This document shows positions 22,968 through 54,169 of a stretch of DNA of 64,000 nucleotides, in pieces. How positions within the stretch are numbered: position 1 is the first letter of the stretch; each line of letters opens with the position of its first letter. This DNA comes from Deltaproteobacteria bacterium (GTDB lineage: Bacteria > SAR324 > XYD2-FULL-50-16), in the NCBI GenBank assembly GCA_018645005.1, contig JABGPJ010000058.1, forward strand, positions 30,965 through 94,964. The letters run 5' to 3'. The notes under the pieces are model-generated. The model had not been told where the DNA came from. It did no database searches and was given only the letters and a program-made list of their open reading frames with translations. The position numbers were made by a program, and so were the translations under genes.

Positions 22968-23130
22968 GCAAATCTGAGCGCACCATTTTCCATCGATCTG
23001 CATAAAAACTTCTACGCCCCTTGACAAAGCGAAATACTTCAGTAACCTCATGTCAAGGGCGGCTAAGGATAACCACCTTATCTTCCTCTCTATCTTCAAC
23101 CAATACGCTTCTCCCTAGCCCGGTAACTCT

Positions 23131-24018
23131 ATGAAACAGCTATTCATTTTGGGGTTCCTTGTCATAAGCCTGTTCATATCCGCATCTGATGGATTCTGCC
23201 AGGAAATAGATGCCCCTAATACAAAAGTCACGTATTACGATGAAAGGGATCATATTATCAAAGAAATTAGAAATTTCAGTCTCGAAAAATCACAGGCACA
23301 GGGTTTCTATAAATCGGTGACAAATTTTGATAGATATGGGAAAATCGTCCAAACGGAAGAGGTCTTCACAGAAGGGGCTGTCCAAAAAAGCGGAATTCTA
23401 CGTCAGATCCGATTCTTTGATAAAAACGGCCACCTGACCCGGGTTGAAAAAGAGTTATCTCCAAACAACCCCAAAGATCCGGGTGTGCGAAAATCTGTTT
23501 TTCATCTGCGACCCAACGGGATGAAAGAAAAGCTGGAGCTCTACTATTCGACAGAAGCGGCTGAACGGACAGGGTTTAACAGAATTGTGTTCTTTCACAA
23601 TCCAGATGGCCGCAAAACACATGAGACCTTGTACCACACACAACACAAAGCCGAGCAGCAGGGAGTTTACAAATCCAATATAAATTATACTCCTGCCGGT
23701 CTGAAGAAAAGTGTGATCTGGTGGATGACTGAAGTCTATATTGCAGCGGAACAGATCACAAAAGTAGTTTTTTATTATGACAGTAAAGGCAATGAGACTA
23801 AGCAGGAAGGTCATTTCTCCAGAGAAAAAGCAAAGGAACTGGGTTACTACAAAACGATCATGCATCATGATCTGGCAGGACGGAAGTTGAAGGAAGAACG
23901 ATATTATCTTCAAAACAACCAAAGTGCAAAGGGCTACTATAAGGGTATAATCACCTTCGACGAGGATGGTAGAATCATAACAGAAGAGAAGTTCGATAAA
24001 TATGGCAACACCTTTTAA
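23131..24018 (+). CDS. Secreted repeat protein (YwqK/MORN-variant-like repeats)
   Basis: Signal peptide (FILGFLVISLFISASDG) followed by about 8 repeats with about 33-aa period of the form G(Y/F)YKxxxxFDxxGkxxxEExY, e.g. GYYKTIMHHDLAGRKLKEERYY and GYYKGIITFDEDGRIITEEKFD. Confidence 0.6.
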   Translation: MKQLFILGFLVISLFISASDGFCQEIDAPNTKVTYYDERDHIIKEIRNFSLEKSQAQGFYKSVTNFDRYGKIVQTEEVFTEGAVQKSGILRQIRFFDKNGHLTRVEKELSPNNPKDPGVRKSVFHLRPNGMKEKLELYYSTEAAERTGFNRIVFFHNPDGRKTHETLYHTQHKAEQQGVYKSNINYTPAGLKKSVIWWMTEVYIAAEQITKVVFYYDSKGNETKQEGHFSREKAKELGYYKTIMHHDLAGRKLKEERYYLQNNQSAKGYYKGIITFDEDGRIITEEKFDKYGNTF

Positions 24019-24156
24019 AAACTGCCCGCTCTGACCAAAACAATAAAAATAAATTTTCAAAGCAGTGCCAAAACTGTTTCCGCGTGTCTCTCATAGCAAT
24101 TAAAAAGGATTTTATGATTTTCGGTCATCCGGCCCACTCACAAAAATTATCGCCAT

Positions 24157-27100
24157 ATGAAGCATTTTTTCGATCAAGCTACCGCATTATCTGCTACTGA
24201 AAAGTCTCAGATACTGGATACTGCTCGACAAGAATTGAAAAAGAATCCTATGAACTTCAATGAAATGTCGACCCAGCAGTTATTGCTCTGCATCAACGCC
24301 AGCGCTTCGAATCATTATATTCCCACGGGGATGGAGAGTCTGATCACGACTCATATTATACCCTTAAATCAAAATATCGACAAACATGTACATTCGAGCA
24401 TTAAAGAACTACTCCTTGAAACAACCAATGACCTACTAGGGTATCTGCTGGAAAATATCCAGACAAAGGAAATCCATCAGTATTTCGACCTGATCTTCAA
24501 TCTTGAAAACCGATATCAGTTCGACCCCTTGCTGGTCGCACATTTTTCTTATGATGAACTGGTCGATTACCTTCAGGATTTTTTAAAGGCTTCGGTGGTT
24601 GATGACATTGATCGAAGCGTCGAAATTTTCGACGACCGTCAACCCAAGTCGTGGAAAACACTGACAAAGCTTGCAGATTTGGAAAGTGTTGATACCAGTA
24701 TTAAAATTCCTGCAATTATCGAGCGACCGTTTTTTTCCGATATCCATTTTAACATCACCAAACAGGGCCGAGCAACGTTGATCAAAAGCACTTTTGGTCA
24801 ACTGAAATCTGTGCAGCCGTATTTCAGTAAAACTAAGGCCCCAACCGGTGAATTGTTTAGCGCCAAGAACAAGGTATTTCTGAAATGGCGGGATATTCAT
24901 CAGTTCAAACTAGGATCCACGCAATCCAAATCTTTTCTGGGGGTTTCCGTCAAGGGTGAGTTTGTTGCGGCAACAAAGCTGATATCACATGATATCGGAT
25001 TAAAAATGATTAGCATTGAGGATATCGACTCATTCAAACTGAGAATTAACAAAAAAGTGGTCGATGTCAGCCCCAAGGAGATTACTCAAATCGAAATCAA
25101 TCTCGACACCCAACAGATGATTATGACCCGGGATGTCACCGAGGATGATTTTCATATCAGCCGGTTTAAGCGTCTCAAATTGAAAAAAGGGGATCAAGTA
25201 GGGCAGATTAACAAGATTGTCTCCTTTAACCGTGGCTCTTCAAATTTCGAGCAGATACAGACCATCTTTGGAACCCGCTATACTGAATGTGAAAAAGCAC
25301 GCAACATACTGAACGCGAGGGGTGAATACGGACTTTTGGGAACCAGGAATATCGCAGCGGGCGATCTGGCCTCTCATCTGGTTTTAACTAGTATGAAACT
25401 GCTCGGCTTTCTTCCGTTCAATATTCAGTGTATCGGATTTAAACCCGAAGATGTTAATAATCCCAAAGTCAGTCAAAGTGAAGCGATCAGCTGGATCAAA
25501 GACGTTCAGAATTCGCTGTCTGAAATTATGGATGTTTCAAAAACGCCCAGTTTTACTGAACACAATTTTTCCCGCCTGACAAAAACAGTGAGGACGATTA
25601 TTAAGCGGGATAATTTGTCGGATATAACTCCCCAGCATCTCGAACAGATTATTGAGGAATTAGAGGGCTTGATTCTGTATATGGATGACTTTTTCAAGTT
25701 GAACATATACCAAAAACTTGAGGACGATCTGGAATGTGAAACCGTCCCGGATCTGGATGAAGAATCTCAGCAGAATACAGACGTTCAAGCCGAAAATGAA
25801 GATCTCAGACTTGATGATCAGGCCAAAAATTTTATTACTGAAAACTACACCTTTTTTGAAAAACGGGATCACATTGAAAGCGTGCTGATTAAAATTGAAA
25901 AAATACTTTTCTATAATAAAAACATCAAGCCGTTTGCTGAAGATTTAAAATACGATCCTGATCTGATCTTATACACCAATTCAAATTCACAACTGCAGAA
26001 TTACCGTTTAAGCTCCTACCCATCCGTTTCAACGTCAAAAGTGCTTGACACCAAAACGCTGGAATTCAAAAACGAAGGTGAAGAGCTGCGATTCATTAGA
26101 TTCATGCGAGCATTCACACAGAAATGCCATCAAAAAGCACTGGAACTCAACAAAACCTTCCACCATCAGTTCAAACATACGTTATCAGAATTGACCTTTA
26201 TTGCAGATGAAAAACTCATGCAACTGAAGGACGAACTGGCATTTCTGGAGATTCCTGATAATAAGGAAGCCGCTTACCAAACACTTTTTGAAAAAATCAC
26301 TGCGCTCTACCATCAACACCTCAAAGATAAGCAGGAGAATATCGATAACCTCGAGAAAGAATATACCGAGATCAAAGCCAGATATGAGCAATTCAAGTCG
26401 GATCTGGAAAGGCTTCTTGACACACAATACACCGAAGAGGAACTCGGTGCGGTTCTGTCGCAAATGCCTGAGCAACTGGAGACGATGAAGCAGGAGATAC
26501 TTTCTCAGCACAAAACAAGACTTGCAGAGACATCCCCCGTTTTCAACGCCTATTTGAAGCTCTATAACGCCTCTATCAATTATTTTAAAAAGATCCTCAA
26601 GTACTCAAACCTTTTTCTTAAAGCGCTGTGGGTTCATAGGAATAAAGCGGCCTTTCAAGAGGTAAAATTACAGACAGTGACTTTCTTTTCAATGGACACG
26701 GATGTAATCCTGCTCAAGGTTAAAGAGTTTGAAAATTTTCAACATGATGAAAATAAGGAAAAACGGATTCAACAGGAAATCCACAATCTGTCGCAGAAAA
26801 TTAAATCTTCTTTGATCGAGATGAGTAAAATCCCGGTGAAAGGCTTATTTCAAGACAAGAACAGGGATATGGGAGATCTGACCACTTATCTCACATACTA
26901 CAAACGGGAAACCGATTCTCTTTGCTCACTAATCAAACAATTGCACCCGACCTATCAGCGACTCAGTCAACTACAGAATCTGCTTTTCAAAAAGCAGGAA
27001 GAACTGGTGTCCAGTAAACTGGAAAAGGCAAAAAATGATTTACGGATTCAAATTTCGAAAATGATTTGTAACAACCCCGAGTGTCATGCGGAAATTGATG

Positions 27101-28149
27101 ATTTGGAACGAAAATCGGAGAAGGTACCCAAGGAGATAAAGGATGAACTGGGCGATCTGCGTGGGAAACTCGTAGAATCTGTAAATCATTTCAAAACGAT
27201 TACAGCGCCTGTCAATCTCGAAAAAATCCTGGACTACGAAACCCTGTTTGCTCAGGCAGACAACAGGCATCAAATCAACGAAATATCAAAGGAGTTGGTC
27301 AATTTTACACAGGGACTAACCGCCATTGGGCAAGAAAAAGAGGGCGAAATTGAAGACCTGAACTATCTGTCATCCCAGGAGGAAAACCTTGAGCAAGTCG
27401 CAATGTCCAAGGCGTTGCCGTCAACAAGAATACTGCTGAAGAACAATTATATTCCAATGATTGAGAGAGAGAAAAAGATGCTTCTGCGGGCCAATCAGTT
27501 TCTCTCGGAAATCATCTCTAATGAAAAAGCAATTAACCAGGTTCTGGTTTCAACATTTTTTCATAAACGATTTGGTGTATATCAATTCATTAATGGAACG
27601 TACTGTCTAGATATTACAGCCGGGGCTAAAGATCATACAGAGAAGAACATATACAATGCTTTCATGCTGATAGCAGAACGTCTGGTCAAAGCTTGCTCAG
27701 GAGTTGTACTTCCGGGAACGCAGGTGAGCTTGAAGAAGGTGGAAGTCAAAGGCATTCCAGATTTGAGAAATCTGATTTCTCAAATCTGGCAAGGACATGT
27801 TGATGACCGGTTTATTCTACTACCGTCATCTCTTTCCTTGGAGGAGGCATTTGAACTCTGTGAGTATAAAGATCTGATCTGTCAAAAAAATCCCAAATCA
27901 CAGAAATCGAAGAATTCGTTGATTTTAATTTACGTCCACAAGATTGCTTTTGAAGCGATCGAAAGATCACCTGAATTAAAAATAAAATATAATCAGGCGA
28001 TTCTGAGTAATATCTTTATCAATGTAGACGGGGTGGAGATATTCAACAATCGTGATTCGATCTATGATGCCTGCATCAGGGAAACTTTCGGAAAATGTCA
28101 CGACAAGCAAGCAGACCAAATCATGCATAATTTTCTGTTTGCCAGTTAA
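24157..28149 (+). CDS. Giant (1330 aa) cytoplasmic protein of unknown function, coiled-coil-rich
   Basis: Uninterrupted 3993-nt ORF with no signal peptide or TM segment. The central ~600 aa is heptad-like and K/E/Q/L-rich. I found no Walker A, HxH, DxD or other catalytic motif by eye. Confidence 0.75.
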   Translation: MKHFFDQATALSATEKSQILDTARQELKKNPMNFNEMSTQQLLLCINASASNHYIPTGMESLITTHIIPLNQNIDKHVHSSIKELLLETTNDLLGYLLENIQTKEIHQYFDLIFNLENRYQFDPLLVAHFSYDELVDYLQDFLKASVVDDIDRSVEIFDDRQPKSWKTLTKLADLESVDTSIKIPAIIERPFFSDIHFNITKQGRATLIKSTFGQLKSVQPYFSKTKAPTGELFSAKNKVFLKWRDIHQFKLGSTQSKSFLGVSVKGEFVAATKLISHDIGLKMISIEDIDSFKLRINKKVVDVSPKEITQIEINLDTQQMIMTRDVTEDDFHISRFKRLKLKKGDQVGQINKIVSFNRGSSNFEQIQTIFGTRYTECEKARNILNARGEYGLLGTRNIAAGDLASHLVLTSMKLLGFLPFNIQCIGFKPEDVNNPKVSQSEAISWIKDVQNSLSEIMDVSKTPSFTEHNFSRLTKTVRTIIKRDNLSDITPQHLEQIIEELEGLILYMDDFFKLNIYQKLEDDLECETVPDLDEESQQNTDVQAENEDLRLDDQAKNFITENYTFFEKRDHIESVLIKIEKILFYNKNIKPFAEDLKYDPDLILYTNSNSQLQNYRLSSYPSVSTSKVLDTKTLEFKNEGEELRFIRFMRAFTQKCHQKALELNKTFHHQFKHTLSELTFIADEKLMQLKDELAFLEIPDNKEAAYQTLFEKITALYHQHLKDKQENIDNLEKEYTEIKARYEQFKSDLERLLDTQYTEEELGAVLSQMPEQLETMKQEILSQHKTRLAETSPVFNAYLKLYNASINYFKKILKYSNLFLKALWVHRNKAAFQEVKLQTVTFFSMDTDVILLKVKEFENFQHDENKEKRIQQEIHNLSQKIKSSLIEMSKIPVKGLFQDKNRDMGDLTTYLTYYKRETDSLCSLIKQLHPTYQRLSQLQNLLFKKQEELVSSKLEKAKNDLRIQISKMICNNPECHAEIDDLERKSEKVPKEIKDELGDLRGKLVESVNHFKTITAPVNLEKILDYETLFAQADNRHQINEISKELVNFTQGLTAIGQEKEGEIEDLNYLSSQEENLEQVAMSKALPSTRILLKNNYIPMIEREKKMLLRANQFLSEIISNEKAINQVLVSTFFHKRFGVYQFINGTYCLDITAGAKDHTEKNIYNAFMLIAERLVKACSGVVLPGTQVSLKKVEVKGIPDLRNLISQIWQGHVDDRFILLPSSLSLEEAFELCEYKDLICQKNPKSQKSKNSLILIYVHKIAFEAIERSPELKIKYNQAILSNIFINVDGVEIFNNRDSIYDACIRETFGKCHDKQADQIMHNFLFAS

Positions 28150-28270: not shown

Positions 28271-28807
28271 TTATCGACATTGACCCAAAGACCCTTTTGC
28301 ACAGGCATTTTCAAGGACGCCAGTTGCTCCCGTAAAGTCCACCAGTTTCAGATCTATATCATCCAAGACCACATCTGTCAGATTTGCTTGCCTTAATAAA
28401 ACCCCTTTCATCTTAACCCCTTGTAAAAAGGCTTCCTCAAGATCTGCCCCTGAAAAATCAACAAATAGCAGATTGCTTCCCTGCATAATTATTTCGTTCA
28501 ATTTGGCACCGGTAAAATCGACCATTCGGAGATTAGATCCGGTGAGATCTGCCCCTGCCAGGTTCGCCTGTGACAAATTGGTATTTTCAATAATTGCCCC
28601 TTTGAGATTAGCGCCTGTCAAGTCTGCTTCTCTCAGGTCGAGGTTAACCAAGCTAGCCCCTTCTAAATTACAGTTCGAAAATGTCCCTCCAGTACATTTT
28701 TTTGTCTCTTTTAGTTTTAACAGATCCTCTTTATTAAAACCGAATGCAATCATATTACTACAAATAAAAAATATGCAAATTACGAACAGAGATATGGTTT
28801 TTCTCAT
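28271..28807 (-). CDS. Secreted pentapeptide-repeat protein
   Basis: Signal peptide (ISLFVICIFFICSNMIAFG), then contiguous A(D/N)LxG-type pentapeptides (ANLKGAIIENTNLSQANLAGADLTGSNLRMVDFTGAKL...). Confidence 0.85.
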   Translation of the reverse strand: MRKTISLFVICIFFICSNMIAFGFNKEDLLKLKETKKCTGGTFSNCNLEGASLVNLDLREADLTGANLKGAIIENTNLSQANLAGADLTGSNLRMVDFTGAKLNEIIMQGSNLLFVDFSGADLEEAFLQGVKMKGVLLRQANLTDVVLDDIDLKLVDFTGATGVLENACAKGSLGQCR

Positions 28808-29721: not shown

Positions 29722-29991
29722 ATGGTTTTCATTCAAGATTCCTGGGTAGGATTTTTATTTATGAGTTTTTTTCTCGTAGGACTATTGCAGATTATAGCTA
29801 AAAGTCGAACAACCGAAGTCCAACCGGGGATGGCGACTAAGTCTGATCAGTTTTCAATGAGAACTGTTTTTCTCAGTATCCGAAGTGGTGAAGCAATGCT
29901 GTTTTTCACTGTACTTTTCATCACTATCAGCTTTTTCTTTTTCTCTCTTGGCATCTGCAAATACATGATAGCGATGATCCCCATTGGATAA
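29722..29991 (+). CDS. Hypothetical small membrane protein (89 aa)
   Basis: Two predicted TM helices. Starts 19 nt after the preceding ORF. No motif recognised. Confidence 0.3.
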   Translation: MVFIQDSWVGFLFMSFFLVGLLQIIAKSRTTEVQPGMATKSDQFSMRTVFLSIRSGEAMLFFTVLFITISFFFFSLGICKYMIAMIPIG

Positions 29992-30230: not shown

Positions 30231-30830
30231 ATGAGAGATGTTTACCAGACTGTAAGAACGCATATATATGTAAATCTGATCAAACCCCTACGCGAAAGTG
30301 TGTCTCCAATACATGAAACCGCACTGGGGTCGGCAATTGGCATATTTGTCGGGCTTACACCAACAGTGGGGCTTCAAATGTGGATTGTACTCATGGTCTG
30401 GCTTGGGTTGAAATTTTTTCTGAAATTGAGATTCGATCTGATCGTTGGAACCGCGATTGTTTGGATTAGCAACCCCTTCACAATGTTTTTCCTGTATTAT
30501 GGATTTCTCGAAACAGGGTATTCATTTATATCGATGAGTGGAATCGGGTCCAAACCCCTGGAATTGAACTACACGACCTTTTACAATCAACTTTCCTTTA
30601 TACTCGACACCCATCAGCACAGCGGTCTCGACATCATTTTCAATGGTTCAAGATTCCTTTTGGTTGATCTCGGATACCCAATGCTAATCGGTAGCATGTT
30701 CTATGCGGTTCCCTGCTCTATTCTGTCCTATATTCTGATCAAACGGTATTTAACCGGTTACCGCAAACGAAGGGCAGAAAAAATGGGGATTAATTATGAG
30801 CAGTGGCGGGAATTATTTGAGCGGAAATAG
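30231..30830 (+). CDS. DUF2062-like integral membrane protein
   Basis: HETALGSAIGIFVGLTPTVGLQMWIV... and four TM helices match my recollection of the DUF2062 family layout. Confidence 0.5.
   Translation: MRDVYQTVRTHIYVNLIKPLRESVSPIHETALGSAIGIFVGLTPTVGLQMWIVLMVWLGLKFFLKLRFDLIVGTAIVWISNPFTMFFLYYGFLETGYSFISMSGIGSKPLELNYTTFYNQLSFILDTHQHSGLDIIFNGSRFLLVDLGYPMLIGSMFYAVPCSILSYILIKRYLTGYRKRRAEKMGINYEQWRELFERK

Positions 30831-50762: not shown

Positions 50763-54169
<3,407 letters not shown>

What the first reader, a model, noticed from the sequence alone, without database searches (positions are those of the whole stretch)
24157..28149. 1330-aa orphan protein with no recognisable catalytic or targeting motif
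This is the longest gene in the window, an uninterrupted ORF on the + strand. It has no signal peptide, TM segment or nucleotide-binding loop, and I found no GxxxxGK[ST]. I can name no repeat family in it. The architecture by eye is as follows. A helical N-terminus occupies residues ~1-160. A beta-rich region occupies ~200-420 (SFLGVSVKGEFVAATKL...KKGDQVGQINKIVSF). An acidic linker follows (DLDEESQQNTDVQAENEDL). About 550 aa of heptad-rich coiled coil comes next. A mixed alpha/beta C-terminal domain completes it (FINGTYCLDITAGAKDH...ILLPSSLSLEEAFELCEY...LILIYVHKIAFEAI). Size and layout suggest a cytoskeletal, scaffold or SMC-unrelated tether-like protein, but this is conjecture.
Basis: seen in the sequence. 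Interest (0 to 1): 0.6.

Follow-up and report, generated by a model that had tools for sequence, protein, structure and literature searches.

The report
Giant SAR324-only protein of unknown fold
The 1330-residue gene is real, expressed and strongly conserved, but only within the uncultured SAR324 bacterial phylum, and neither its sequence nor its predicted structure matches any known protein, so it is a new family whose function is still only inferred.

Summary
The ORF 24157..28149 (+) is real and is the longest in the window. It has no signal peptide, TM segment or P-loop. It is transcribed in four marine metatranscriptomes and is under strong purifying selection (pN 0.17-0.32 against saturated pS of about 0.85).

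It is not an orphan. More than 60 full-length relatives exist, all from SAR324 / "Ca. Lambdaproteobacteria" MAGs. They form three deep groups: A (this gene), B1 and B2. The groups are homologous end to end (hhalign E = 1.6e-43, 16% identity). Nearly all are 1316-1347 aa long and have almost no indels.

Pfam, NCBIfam, PADLOC, PHROGs and PDB sequence or profile searches gave nothing. So did Foldseek (PDB, BFVD) on confident AlphaFold models (pLDDT 80 and 86). The only hits were generic long antiparallel coiled coils (dynein stalk, Rad50, SMC, MukB).

Neighbours differ by group:
- A: an AI-2E permease upstream (lost in this lineage) and a convergent secreted pentapeptide-repeat gene.
- B2: a translationally coupled GT4 glycosyltransferase.
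- B1: none conserved.

My best reading, at low confidence, is a non-enzymatic, length-constrained stalk-and-heads scaffold whose functional site is the C-terminal alpha/beta domain.

The parts
24157..28149 (+). Complete ORF, 1330 aa plus stop (154 kDa, pI 5.96), a type-A member of the SAR324 superfamily
   Evidence: Homologues. True start is 24157: M1, H3, F4 and F5 are invariant in type A, although the database copy P0002 starts at M32 (1299 aa).
24157..24258 (+). Residues 1-34: N-terminal helix (13-29)
   Evidence: AlphaFold model. Length is invariant (34) in both A and B.
24259..24636 (+). D1, residues 35-160: alpha/beta domain (five strands alternating with helices). N47 after strand 1 is invariant across the superfamily.
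   Evidence: (pLDDT 83-92). Foldseek gives only weak generic Rossmann-like hits (FolD/MTHFD2, E >= 0.02).
24637..25236 (+). D2, residues 161-360: all-beta region of about 17 strands. It is basic in type A only (median net charge +13). The PFFS motif (F192, F193) is conserved across the superfamily.
   Evidence: No PDB or BFVD fold match.
25237..25731 (+). D3, residues 361-525: helical bundle, with the YMDDFFKLN motif at 508-516
25732..25821 (+). Residues 526-555: acidic disordered linker. It is the main indel-prone stretch of type A and is absent from type B.
   Evidence: pLDDT < 50 at 524-553. Gaps. Length is 25-32 residues in A and 1 residue in B. Selection is relaxed here (pN/pS higher).
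25822..26256 (+). D4a, residues 556-700: helices plus two short strands. It carries the most conserved type-A helix, KTFHHQ[YF]KHTLAEL (665-678). I infer this is the base of the stalk.
   Evidence: Identity within A is 62% for residues 641-700.
26257..27381 (+). D4b, residues 701-1075: long helices (53, 70, 26, 65, 24 and 58 residues) forming the stalk. Sequence is variable (37% within A, 10% between A and B) but length is fixed (375-377 in A).
   Evidence: Foldseek hits only to dynein stalk, Rad50, Smc5/6 and MukB (E 2e-4 to 1e-2, TM <= 0.15). PDB profile hits only to apolipoproteins and designed bundles.
27382..27576 (+). Residues 1076-1140: highly conserved helices leading into the C-terminal domain (AMSKALPSTRILLKxxYIP, FFxKR). 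P1088 and P1100 are invariant across the superfamily.
   Evidence: 64% identity within A and 20% between A and B, among the highest of any segment.
27577..28146 (+). D5, residues 1141-1330: (beta-alpha)5-type domain. It is the best conserved globular part. With the preceding helices it carries 13 of the 20 polar positions conserved across the superfamily (K1137, R1138, Q1143, N1164, S1225, K1238, Y1278, N1285, N1298, T1310, D1316 and others).
   Evidence: (pLDDT about 88-96). No PDB sequence match (E = 0.37).
28271..28807 (-). Convergent neighbour: a secreted 178-aa pentapeptide-repeat protein, kept next to type-A genes in 15 of 18 loci
   Evidence: Pfam PF00805, E = 2e-31. Synteny.
23131..24018 (+). 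Upstream same-strand 295-aa repeat protein with a signal peptide. It occupies the position held by the AI-2E permease in most relatives and may be co-transcribed.
   Evidence: RNA contig X21 covers 23067-24231 and spans the junction.

Best explanation
The gene encodes a cytoplasmic, non-enzymatic structural or mechanical protein found only in the SAR324 phylum.

Shown:
- It has five ordered modules. These are an N-terminal alpha/beta domain, an all-beta region, a helical bundle, a stalk of long helices with fixed length but variable sequence, and a C-terminal (beta-alpha)5 domain.
- The family is vertically inherited, under strong purifying selection, transcribed, and duplicated into deep paralogues (A, B1, B2) that all keep the same length of about 1330 residues.

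Inferred:
- The long helices fold back on one another as an antiparallel stalk. Helix 702-754 would pair with 1028-1085, and 770-839 with 908-972. Two highly conserved segments (641-700 and 1076-1140) would form the base of the stalk against the C-terminal domain.
- The stalk acts as a rigid spacer or transmission element between the N-terminal modules and the C-terminal domain.
- The C-terminal domain is the partner- or ligand-binding site.
- The protein probably works as a homo-oligomer, or as a B1/B2 hetero-oligomer where both exist.
- It probably works at the cytoplasmic face of the envelope. Type A is usually in an operon with an AI-2E-family inner-membrane permease, and type B2 is translationally coupled to a GT4 glycosyltransferase.
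For: Reality and constraint:
- ORF.
- More than 60 full-length homologues of 1316-1347 aa, apart from one of 1373 aa.
- Almost no indels.
- pN 0.17-0.32 against pS of about 0.85 in every segment.
- RNA contigs at 100% identity in four metatranscriptomes.

One superfamily with one architecture:
- hhalign of A against B gives probability 100%, E = 1.6e-43, 1205 aligned columns.
- The tree shows B1 and B2 in the same MAG.

Non-enzymatic character:
- No catalytic motif.
- Invariant residues are mainly F/P/G/L/N.
- No hit in Pfam, NCBIfam, PADLOC, PHROGs or PDB.

Stalk:
- Confident helices of 53-70 residues.
- The only Foldseek matches are antiparallel coiled-coil machines.
- Stalk length is 375-377 residues at 37% identity, flanked by the two most conserved segments.

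Functional end:
- 13 of 20 conserved polar positions lie in the last 250 residues.

Envelope link:
- AI-2E permease (PF01594, E = 2e-40) directly upstream in 13 of 18 type-A loci, with gaps of -4 to 141 nt in 12 of them and 491 nt in L013.
- GT4 gene overlapping the B2 stop codon by 4 nt in two divergent loci.
Against: - No partner, localisation or oligomeric state has been observed.
- The helix pairing is inferred from helix lengths only. I had no model coordinates, and the pTM of the C-terminal model is only 0.48.
- No neighbour is shared by all three subgroups. B1 genes stand alone, and the window's own lineage has lost the permease from the locus, so the envelope link may be incidental synteny.
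- The conserved polar cluster in the C-terminal domain (K, R, S/T, Y, N, D) could equally be an active site.
- The Foldseek queries were multi-domain models, which lowers sensitivity for the individual domains, and no AlphaFold DB library was available.
Confidence: 0.35

Rival explanations
1. It is a novel enzyme or nucleotide/ligand-dependent switch. The C-terminal (beta-alpha)5 domain, possibly together with the N-terminal alpha/beta domain, forms an unrecognised active or nucleotide-binding site, and the stalk transmits its state.
For: - Both terminal domains are Rossmann-like alpha/beta folds, the commonest enzyme and nucleotide-binding scaffold.
- The conserved K1137, R1138, Q1143, N1164, S1225, K1238, Y1278, N1285, N1298, T1310 and D1316 lie on loops and strand ends of D5.
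- The very low rate of change and absence of indels are typical of enzymes.
- B2 sits in an operon with an aldehyde dehydrogenase and a glycosyltransferase.
Against: - No Gly-rich loop, P-loop, metal-binding or acid-pair motif is conserved between A and B.
- The loop after strand 1 of D5 is not conserved between A and B.
- No profile or fold match to any enzyme family.
Confidence: 0.25
2. It is a degenerate relative of the SMC/Rad50/MukB class. Two half-heads (D4a and D5) are joined by an antiparallel coiled-coil arm. It has lost ATPase motifs and acts in chromosome organisation or DNA repair.
For: - Foldseek on residues 556-1330 ranks Rad50, Smc5/6 and MukB among its best hits, at E 4e-4 to 2e-2 over about 700-950 columns.
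- The topology (small mixed domain, up-helices, apex, down-helices, alpha/beta domain) is the same.
- The arm is fixed in length and variable in sequence, as in SMC arms (the comparison with SMC arms is from my own knowledge).
- The ancestral type-A locus lies just downstream of ligA.
Against: - No Walker A, no Walker B acid (LILIYVxK), no signature motif, no CxxC hook.
- TM scores are <= 0.15 with RMSD > 50 A, so the hits reflect long helices only.
- No sequence or profile link to SMC_N or any ABC ATPase, even with a combined A+B profile.
- 555 further N-terminal residues have no SMC counterpart.
- The basic charge of D2 is not conserved in type B.
Confidence: 0.1
3. It is a filament-forming cytoskeletal protein (a coiled-coil-rich protein of the crescentin/FilP/Scy kind) that shapes or polarises SAR324 cells.
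For: - A large helical fraction with long helices.
- Coiled-coil-type noise hits (apolipoprotein, spectrin repeat, ATG17) in Pfam and PDB.
- The size is similar to Scy (my own knowledge).
- A bactofilin gene lies 8 kb away in the window (note e1-2870711).
Against: - More than half of the protein is globular.
- The helices are broken into segments of 24-70 residues, not a continuous rod.
- Coiled-coil cytoskeletal proteins usually tolerate indels and evolve fast, whereas this family is almost indel-free.
Confidence: 0.12
4. It is a mobile-element, phage or defence-island gene, or an effector, and not a core cellular protein.
For: Large uncharacterised proteins with coiled coils are common in defence systems (my own knowledge). 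The gene stands alone in B1 loci.
Against: - No PADLOC or PHROGs hit.
- GC content is the same as the flanks.
- It lies among housekeeping genes (pheST, gatA, ligA, trkA, rpoBC, ilvD) with synteny conserved down to 34-40% identity.
- No BFVD fold match.
Confidence: 0.03

Closest known systems
SMC / Rad50 / MukB long-armed ABC ATPases
   Same: Overall topology of residues 556-1330: a small mixed domain, long helices up and back, then a C-terminal alpha/beta domain. The arm is constrained in length and variable in sequence. These are among the best Foldseek hits.
   Different: No Walker A or B, signature motif, hinge or zinc hook. TM <= 0.15. No profile similarity. There is an extra 555-residue N-terminal half made of three domains with no counterpart.
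Dynein heavy-chain stalk/buttress region
   Same: The top Foldseek hit (9y6s_9Q, E = 1.9e-4, probability 0.99) is long antiparallel helical hairpins adjoining alpha/beta modules.
   Different: TMq is 0.15 and RMSD is above 50 A. There is no AAA+ module or P-loop. The resemblance is limited to long helices.
Bacterial coiled-coil-rich scaffolds (crescentin, FilP/Scy, EzrA, AglZ)
   Same: Large cytoplasmic proteins without enzymatic motifs, thought to act as spacers or scaffolds. Similar size to Scy and AglZ (my own knowledge).
   Different: Those proteins are dominated by a continuous rod or spectrin-like repeats and tolerate indels. This protein is more than 50% globular, has no internal repeats and is almost indel-free.
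Lineage-specific 'unknown' gene families of uncultivated taxa (FESNov catalogue, PMC10849945)
   Same: A family without Pfam or other database homologues, conserved and under selection, confined to an uncultivated lineage.
   Different: I did not check whether this family is listed there. The main text does not mention SAR324. The family is unusual within that class for its size (154 kDa), its fixed length and its deep paralogy.

Membership tests
SMC/Rad50/MukB (ABC-type ATPase heads on a coiled-coil arm) | Walker A P-loop GxxxxGK[ST] in the N-terminal head half | tested here: not met
   Regex finds none in P0001. There is no conserved Gly-rich loop in the A+B alignment.
SMC/Rad50/MukB (ABC-type ATPase heads on a coiled-coil arm) | Walker B (hhhhDE) and ABC signature motif in the C-terminal head half | tested here: not met
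   The conserved strand is L[IV]LIYVxK with no acidic residue, and there is no LSGG-like motif.
SMC/Rad50/MukB (ABC-type ATPase heads on a coiled-coil arm) | Profile similarity to SMC_N / AAA_23 / Rad50 families | tested here: not met
   No such hit in Pfam or NCBIfam for 26 A and 18 B members, or in PDB profile searches.
SMC/Rad50/MukB (ABC-type ATPase heads on a coiled-coil arm) | Intramolecular antiparallel coiled-coil arm with an apex (hinge or Zn hook) | tested here: inconclusive
   Long helices are predicted and Foldseek gives coiled-coil hits. I had no coordinates to verify the pairing, and there is no CxxC.
Coiled-coil-rich cytoskeletal proteins (crescentin/FilP/Scy) | A continuous rod domain makes up most of the protein, with only short head and tail regions | tested here: not met
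   About 700 of 1330 residues are in alpha/beta, all-beta or bundle domains, and the stalk helices are 24-70 residues long with breaks between them.
Coiled-coil-rich cytoskeletal proteins (crescentin/FilP/Scy) | Self-assembly into filaments | not testable with these tools
   Needs purified protein or imaging.
AAA+/dynein-like motors | AAA+ modules with P-loops | tested here: not met
   No P-loop, no AAA Pfam hit, and Foldseek TM <= 0.15.
Anti-phage defence or phage proteins | Match to a PADLOC or PHROGs model, or location in a variable island | tested here: not met
   No PADLOC hit. In PHROGs there is only one weak hit (E = 0.031) for P0049. The housekeeping synteny is conserved.
SAR324 ~1330-aa superfamily (defined here: types A, B1, B2) | End-to-end homology at a length of about 1316-1347 aa, with invariant N47, F193, P622, F646, P1088, P1100, G1147, N1164 and N1285 | tested here: met
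   The window protein is the reference sequence. See alignments A1 and A6 and the hhalign result.

The most novel reading that the evidence does not exclude
The family is a previously unseen class of NTPase-free 'stalk-and-heads' mechanical protein. It has novel folds in at least the all-beta and C-terminal domains. It would build a phylum-specific intracellular or envelope-associated structure in SAR324, one of the most abundant deep-ocean bacterial lineages. Paralogues (B1/B2) would form hetero-oligomers, and subgroup-specific partners (AI-2E permease, GT4 glycosyltransferase) would couple it to the cell envelope.
Probability: 0.15. Interest if true: 0.75.

Novelty: categorically new. Interest (0 to 1): 0.5.

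Why it matters
SAR324 is a globally abundant, uncultured phylum of the dark ocean, and nothing is known about its cell biology.

This 154-kDa protein has several features that point to a lineage-defining function:
- It is found in every SAR324 lineage sampled here.
- It is expressed in situ.
- It keeps its length to within a few residues across sequence divergence down to about 15% identity.
- It matches nothing in the sequence and structure libraries searched.

It offers three things:
- Candidate new folds for structural biology.
- A phylum-specific marker.
- A tractable target, through heterologous expression, EM and pull-downs, for learning how these organisms are built.

The practical caveat is that lineage-restricted unknown families are numerous in metagenomes, and no function has yet been demonstrated for this one.

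Tried and rejected
- Sequence and profile searches. Pfam and NCBIfam on P0001. Pfam on 26 type-A and 18 type-B members. PDB phmmer and hmmsearch with A1, A6 (A+B), A7 (C-terminal domain, A+B) and A2 (N-terminal half). PADLOC and PHROGs. These returned only coiled-coil or compositional noise.
- Fold searches. N-terminal model against PDB and BFVD, C-terminal model against PDB. No domain-level match. A weak PTEN+C2 hit (3awe, E = 0.017, probability 0.12, TM 0.14) was rejected as noise.
- Exhaustive hmmsearch of 1.84 billion representatives. It found only the family itself and the distant B types. The shorter hits were checked and are fragments of B proteins, not new architectures.
- A third word-indexed search with the combined A+B profile found no further phyla.
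- Internal duplication, such as D1 against D5 or the two halves of the stalk, tested by hhalign. None found.
- Polyanion binding by the basic beta-rich domain. Rejected as a superfamily property because the charge is specific to type A.
- Chemotaxis link (cheB-cheR beside B1 in L019-L021). Not seen in other B1 loci, so I treat it as shared ancestry.
- Receiver-domain, SDR-tetrad and PIN-like readings of D5, compared against motifs recalled from memory (not a tool test) using the A7 alignment. The residue patterns do not fit.
- Rfam on the region. Nothing.
- Literature. No description found.
- Whole-genome searches.


Full report
1. OBSERVATION

The window has an uninterrupted ATG-to-TAA ORF at 24157..28149 on the + strand. 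It encodes 1330 residues and is the longest ORF in the 64 kb; the next longest is 970 aa. GC content (0.40) is the same as the flanks.

The protein is 154 kDa with pI 5.96. It has no GxxxxGK[ST], CxxC, HExxH, GxSxG or GxGxxG motif. Its most hydrophobic 19-residue window scores 1.46, below the level of a TM segment.

The public database copy of this protein (P0002) is 1299 aa and starts at M32. Residues 1-31 are conserved in all relatives, and M1, H3, F4 and F5 are invariant in type A. The start at 24157 is therefore the right one.

2. IT IS NOT AN ORPHAN

A word-indexed search of 5.8 billion proteins found 30 relatives at 37-100% identity, nearly all 1326-1346 aa long. A scan of one genome per GTDB species found 18 loci. 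All are in MAGs labelled SAR324 cluster bacterium, Candidatus Lambdaproteobacteria, Deltaproteobacteria or 'bacterium'. From my own knowledge, GTDB places Lambdaproteobacteria in phylum SAR324.

The 26-sequence alignment is almost free of indels over 1330 columns down to 37% identity. Gaps occur mainly in the acidic linker near residues 526-555, plus one 13-residue insertion at residue 152 in some relatives.

An exhaustive HMMER search of 1.84 billion cluster representatives, using a type-A profile of residues 131-1330, returned only 52 proteins. These were type A itself and a second tier (E between 1e-29 and 1e-9) of proteins 1316-1373 aa long. The shorter hits are fragments of that tier.

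Profile-profile comparison shows this second tier ('type B') is homologous to type A end to end: probability 100%, E = 1.6e-43, 1205 aligned columns, 16% identity. Type B also comes from SAR324 / Lambdaproteobacteria MAGs.

A maximum-likelihood tree separates A from B by a very long branch and splits B into B1 and B2. One MAG (GCA_016204605.1) has one B1 and one B2 on different contigs. Another MAG has two type-A copies from different A clades (L013 and L016). The subgroups are therefore at least partly true paralogues. I cannot exclude bin contamination for the double type-A case.

No locus-tag prefix is shared between the named A and named B hits. This hints that A and B occur in different genomes. 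I could not test it because the whole-genome search was shut.

3. IT IS A REAL, EXPRESSED, CONSTRAINED GENE

Against three relatives at 70%, 53% and 49% identity, synonymous sites are saturated (pS about 0.8-0.9). Non-synonymous differences are 0.17-0.32 in every segment. Only the acidic linker is somewhat relaxed.

More than 20 marine metagenomes hold the sequence, and 11 metatranscriptomes hold part of it. In four RNA runs, assembled contigs at 100% identity tile the ORF. One contig runs without a break from the upstream 295-aa gene into the ORF (23067-24231), which is compatible with co-transcription. Contig depth is comparable with gatA and lower than the neighbouring pentapeptide-repeat gene. 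DNA carry-over in RNA libraries cannot be excluded, but four independent runs agree.

4. ANATOMY

I predicted two AlphaFold2 models from alignments of 18 and 19 relatives, cut at the linker. Both are confident:
- Residues 1-560: mean pLDDT 80.4, pTM 0.63.
- Residues 556-1330: mean pLDDT 85.8, pTM 0.48.

The layout is:
- Residues 13-29: a helix.
- D1, 35-160: five strands alternating with helices, a Rossmann-like alpha/beta domain.
- D2, about 165-356: about 17 beta strands.
- D3, 364-525: a helical bundle.
- 524-553: disordered and acidic.
- D4a, 556-700: helices with two short strands, ending in the very conserved KTFHHQ[YF]KHTLAEL helix.
- D4b, 701-1075: helices of 53, 70, 26, 65, 24 and 58 residues.
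- 1076-1140: conserved helices.
- D5, 1146-1330: a (beta-alpha)5 domain with pLDDT about 90-96.

hhalign between the segments shows no internal duplication.

Segment lengths are strikingly fixed. The 375-residue stalk varies by only two residues among type A at 37% identity. Segment 1076-1140 is 65 residues in all type A and 66 in all type B. Type B lacks the 29-residue linker but has insertions elsewhere, so its total length still falls in the same 1316-1347 range in all but one member (1373 aa).

The most conserved segments are the two that flank the stalk (641-700 at 62% and 1076-1140 at 64% identity within A) and D5.

Of the 20 polar positions conserved in at least 88% of 43 A+B sequences, 13 lie in the last 250 residues: R1091, E1118, K1137, R1138, Q1143, N1164, S1225, K1238, Y1278, N1285, N1298, T1310 and D1316. 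The strictly invariant residues overall are N47, F193, P622, F646, P1088, P1100, G1147, N1164 and N1285. These are mostly structural types. No Cys/His cluster or acidic pair is conserved.

The strong positive charge of D2 (median +13) is confined to type A.

5. COMPARISON WITH KNOWN FAMILIES

Nothing significant was found in any of these:
- Pfam and NCBIfam, for the window protein, 26 A members and 18 B members.
- PADLOC and PHROGs.
- PDB sequences, by phmmer or by profiles of the full A family, the combined A+B family, the C-terminal domain alone or the N-terminal half alone. All hits lie in the helical region, to apolipoproteins, designed bundles, chemoreceptors and haemagglutinin HA2. That is compositional noise.

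Foldseek results:
- N-terminal model against PDB and BFVD: no hit below E = 0.017 and no TM above 0.15.
- C-terminal model: four hits below 1e-3, to dynein heavy chains and Rad50, followed by Smc5/6 and MukB. TM is <= 0.15 and RMSD is above 50 A. These reflect long antiparallel helices, not homology.

Membership in the SMC/Rad50 class fails on Walker A, Walker B, the signature motif and the hook. Membership in the rod-type cytoskeletal class fails because more than half of the protein is globular and the helices are interrupted.

6. GENOMIC CONTEXT

In the window, the gene lies between gatA-pheS-pheT (minus strand) with two small unknown genes upstream, and a convergent secreted pentapeptide-repeat gene 121 nt downstream.

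Across the 18 type-A loci, two neighbours persist through rearrangements of everything else:
- The pentapeptide-repeat gene: 15 of 18 loci, tail to tail, with gaps of 2-121 nt in most.
- An AI-2E-family permease (PF01594, E = 1.9e-40) immediately upstream on the same strand: 13 of 18 loci, gaps of -4 to 141 nt in 12 of them (491 nt in L013), with a 4-nt stop/start overlap in three.

In deep branches the permease is preceded by ligA and trkA. In the window, ligA and trkA sit at 50781-54133. The permease is absent from the window, and the 295-aa repeat protein has taken its place. So the permease link is likely an operon in most type-A lineages, but it is dispensable here.

Type B1 genes stand alone between variable housekeeping genes (ggt and ilvD; rpoC; divergent cheB-cheR in two related loci).

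Type B2 genes in two divergent loci follow an aldehyde dehydrogenase. A GT4 glycosyltransferase gene overlaps their stop codon by 4 nt, and a VWA protein gene lies nearby.

No partner is common to the whole superfamily. The only recurring theme, a weak one, is the cytoplasmic face of the cell envelope.

7. INTERPRETATION

Shown: this is a vertically inherited, expressed, strongly constrained, phylum-restricted multi-domain protein with no detectable relative of known function.

Inferred (confidence about 0.35): it is a non-enzymatic stalk-and-heads scaffold. The argument has three parts.
- The invariant residues are of structural types, and no catalytic motif survives between A and B.
- The stalk keeps its length but not its sequence, and its two ends are the best conserved parts. 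This is the pattern of arms that must pair in register and transmit or set a distance, as in SMC arms or the dynein stalk (my own knowledge).
- Helix lengths suggest that 702-754 pairs with 1028-1085 and 770-839 with 908-972. That would give a folded-back stalk of roughly 18-20 nm, with D4a and D5 together at its base.

D5, with its conserved K/R/Q/N/S/Y/T/D surface, is the likeliest binding site.

Rivals:
- An unrecognised enzyme or nucleotide-dependent switch in D5 and/or D1 (0.25).
- A degenerate SMC-like protein (0.10).
- A filament former (0.12).
- A mobile or defence gene (0.03, effectively excluded by synteny and).

The remaining probability is for something not listed.

8. NOVELTY AND VERDICT

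The family is new to every library I could search, and at least D2 and D5 may be new folds. That remains the main gap.

Lineage-restricted unknown families are common in metagenomes (for example the 404,085 FESNov families, PMC10849945). The finding is therefore notable for its size, its extreme length constraint, its deep paralogy, the ecological weight of SAR324 and its in-situ expression, and not for any demonstrated mechanism. Interest 0.5.

Noticed in passing
window 24157-24252: The public database copy of this protein (P0002) is 1299 aa and starts at M32. The 31 residues upstream are conserved across the family (M1, H3, F4, F5 invariant in type A), so the deposited start is probably called too far downstream.
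   Followed up: yes
window 27029-27036: One metatranscriptome contig (run X21) carries an extra A in the run of six A's (ggcAAAAAAtg) inside the ORF, which would shift the frame. The other runs do not show it. It is probably a homopolymer assembly or sequencing error or a rare variant.
   Followed up: partly
window 28271-28807 (-), and L001-L018: A secreted 178-aa pentapeptide-repeat protein stays tail to tail with the type-A gene in 15 of 18 loci, down to 34-40% identity of the large protein. The gap is often only 2-22 nt, and in RNA run X21 this gene has about 4 times the contig depth of the large gene. Periplasmic pentapeptide-repeat proteins have no known function.
   Followed up: partly
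window 23131-24018 (+): A 295-aa signal-peptide protein made of about 33-aa repeats with no Pfam hit. In the window, and likewise in L002, it sits where other type-A loci have the AI-2E permease. In L004-L006 and L013 it lies about 5 kb further upstream. A deletion of about four genes seems to have brought it next to the large gene.
   Followed up: partly
window 50781-54133 (+): ligA and trkA directly precede the AI-2E permease and the large gene in deep-branching relatives. Here they lie about 23 kb downstream of the large gene, which records a rearrangement of an ancestral ligA-trkA-permease-large-gene block.
   Followed up: partly
L022 10001-15135 and L027 534-6926: Type-B2 paralogues sit in a conserved aldehyde dehydrogenase / large gene / GT4 glycosyltransferase arrangement. 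There is a 4-nt overlap between the large gene's stop and the GT4 start, and a VWA-domain gene lies nearby.
   Followed up: partly
L019 7679-9596, L020 248-1309, L021 226-9397: Some type-B1 genes lie divergently next to a chemotaxis operon (cheB, cheR, and in L021 also cheY, cheA, cheW and an MCP). Other B1 loci do not show this.
   Followed up: partly
window 29722-29991 (+) and 30231-30830 (+): An 89-aa unknown protein (9 loci) and a DUF2062 membrane protein (7 loci) are also syntenic downstream of the pentapeptide-repeat gene in marine type-A loci.
   Followed up: no
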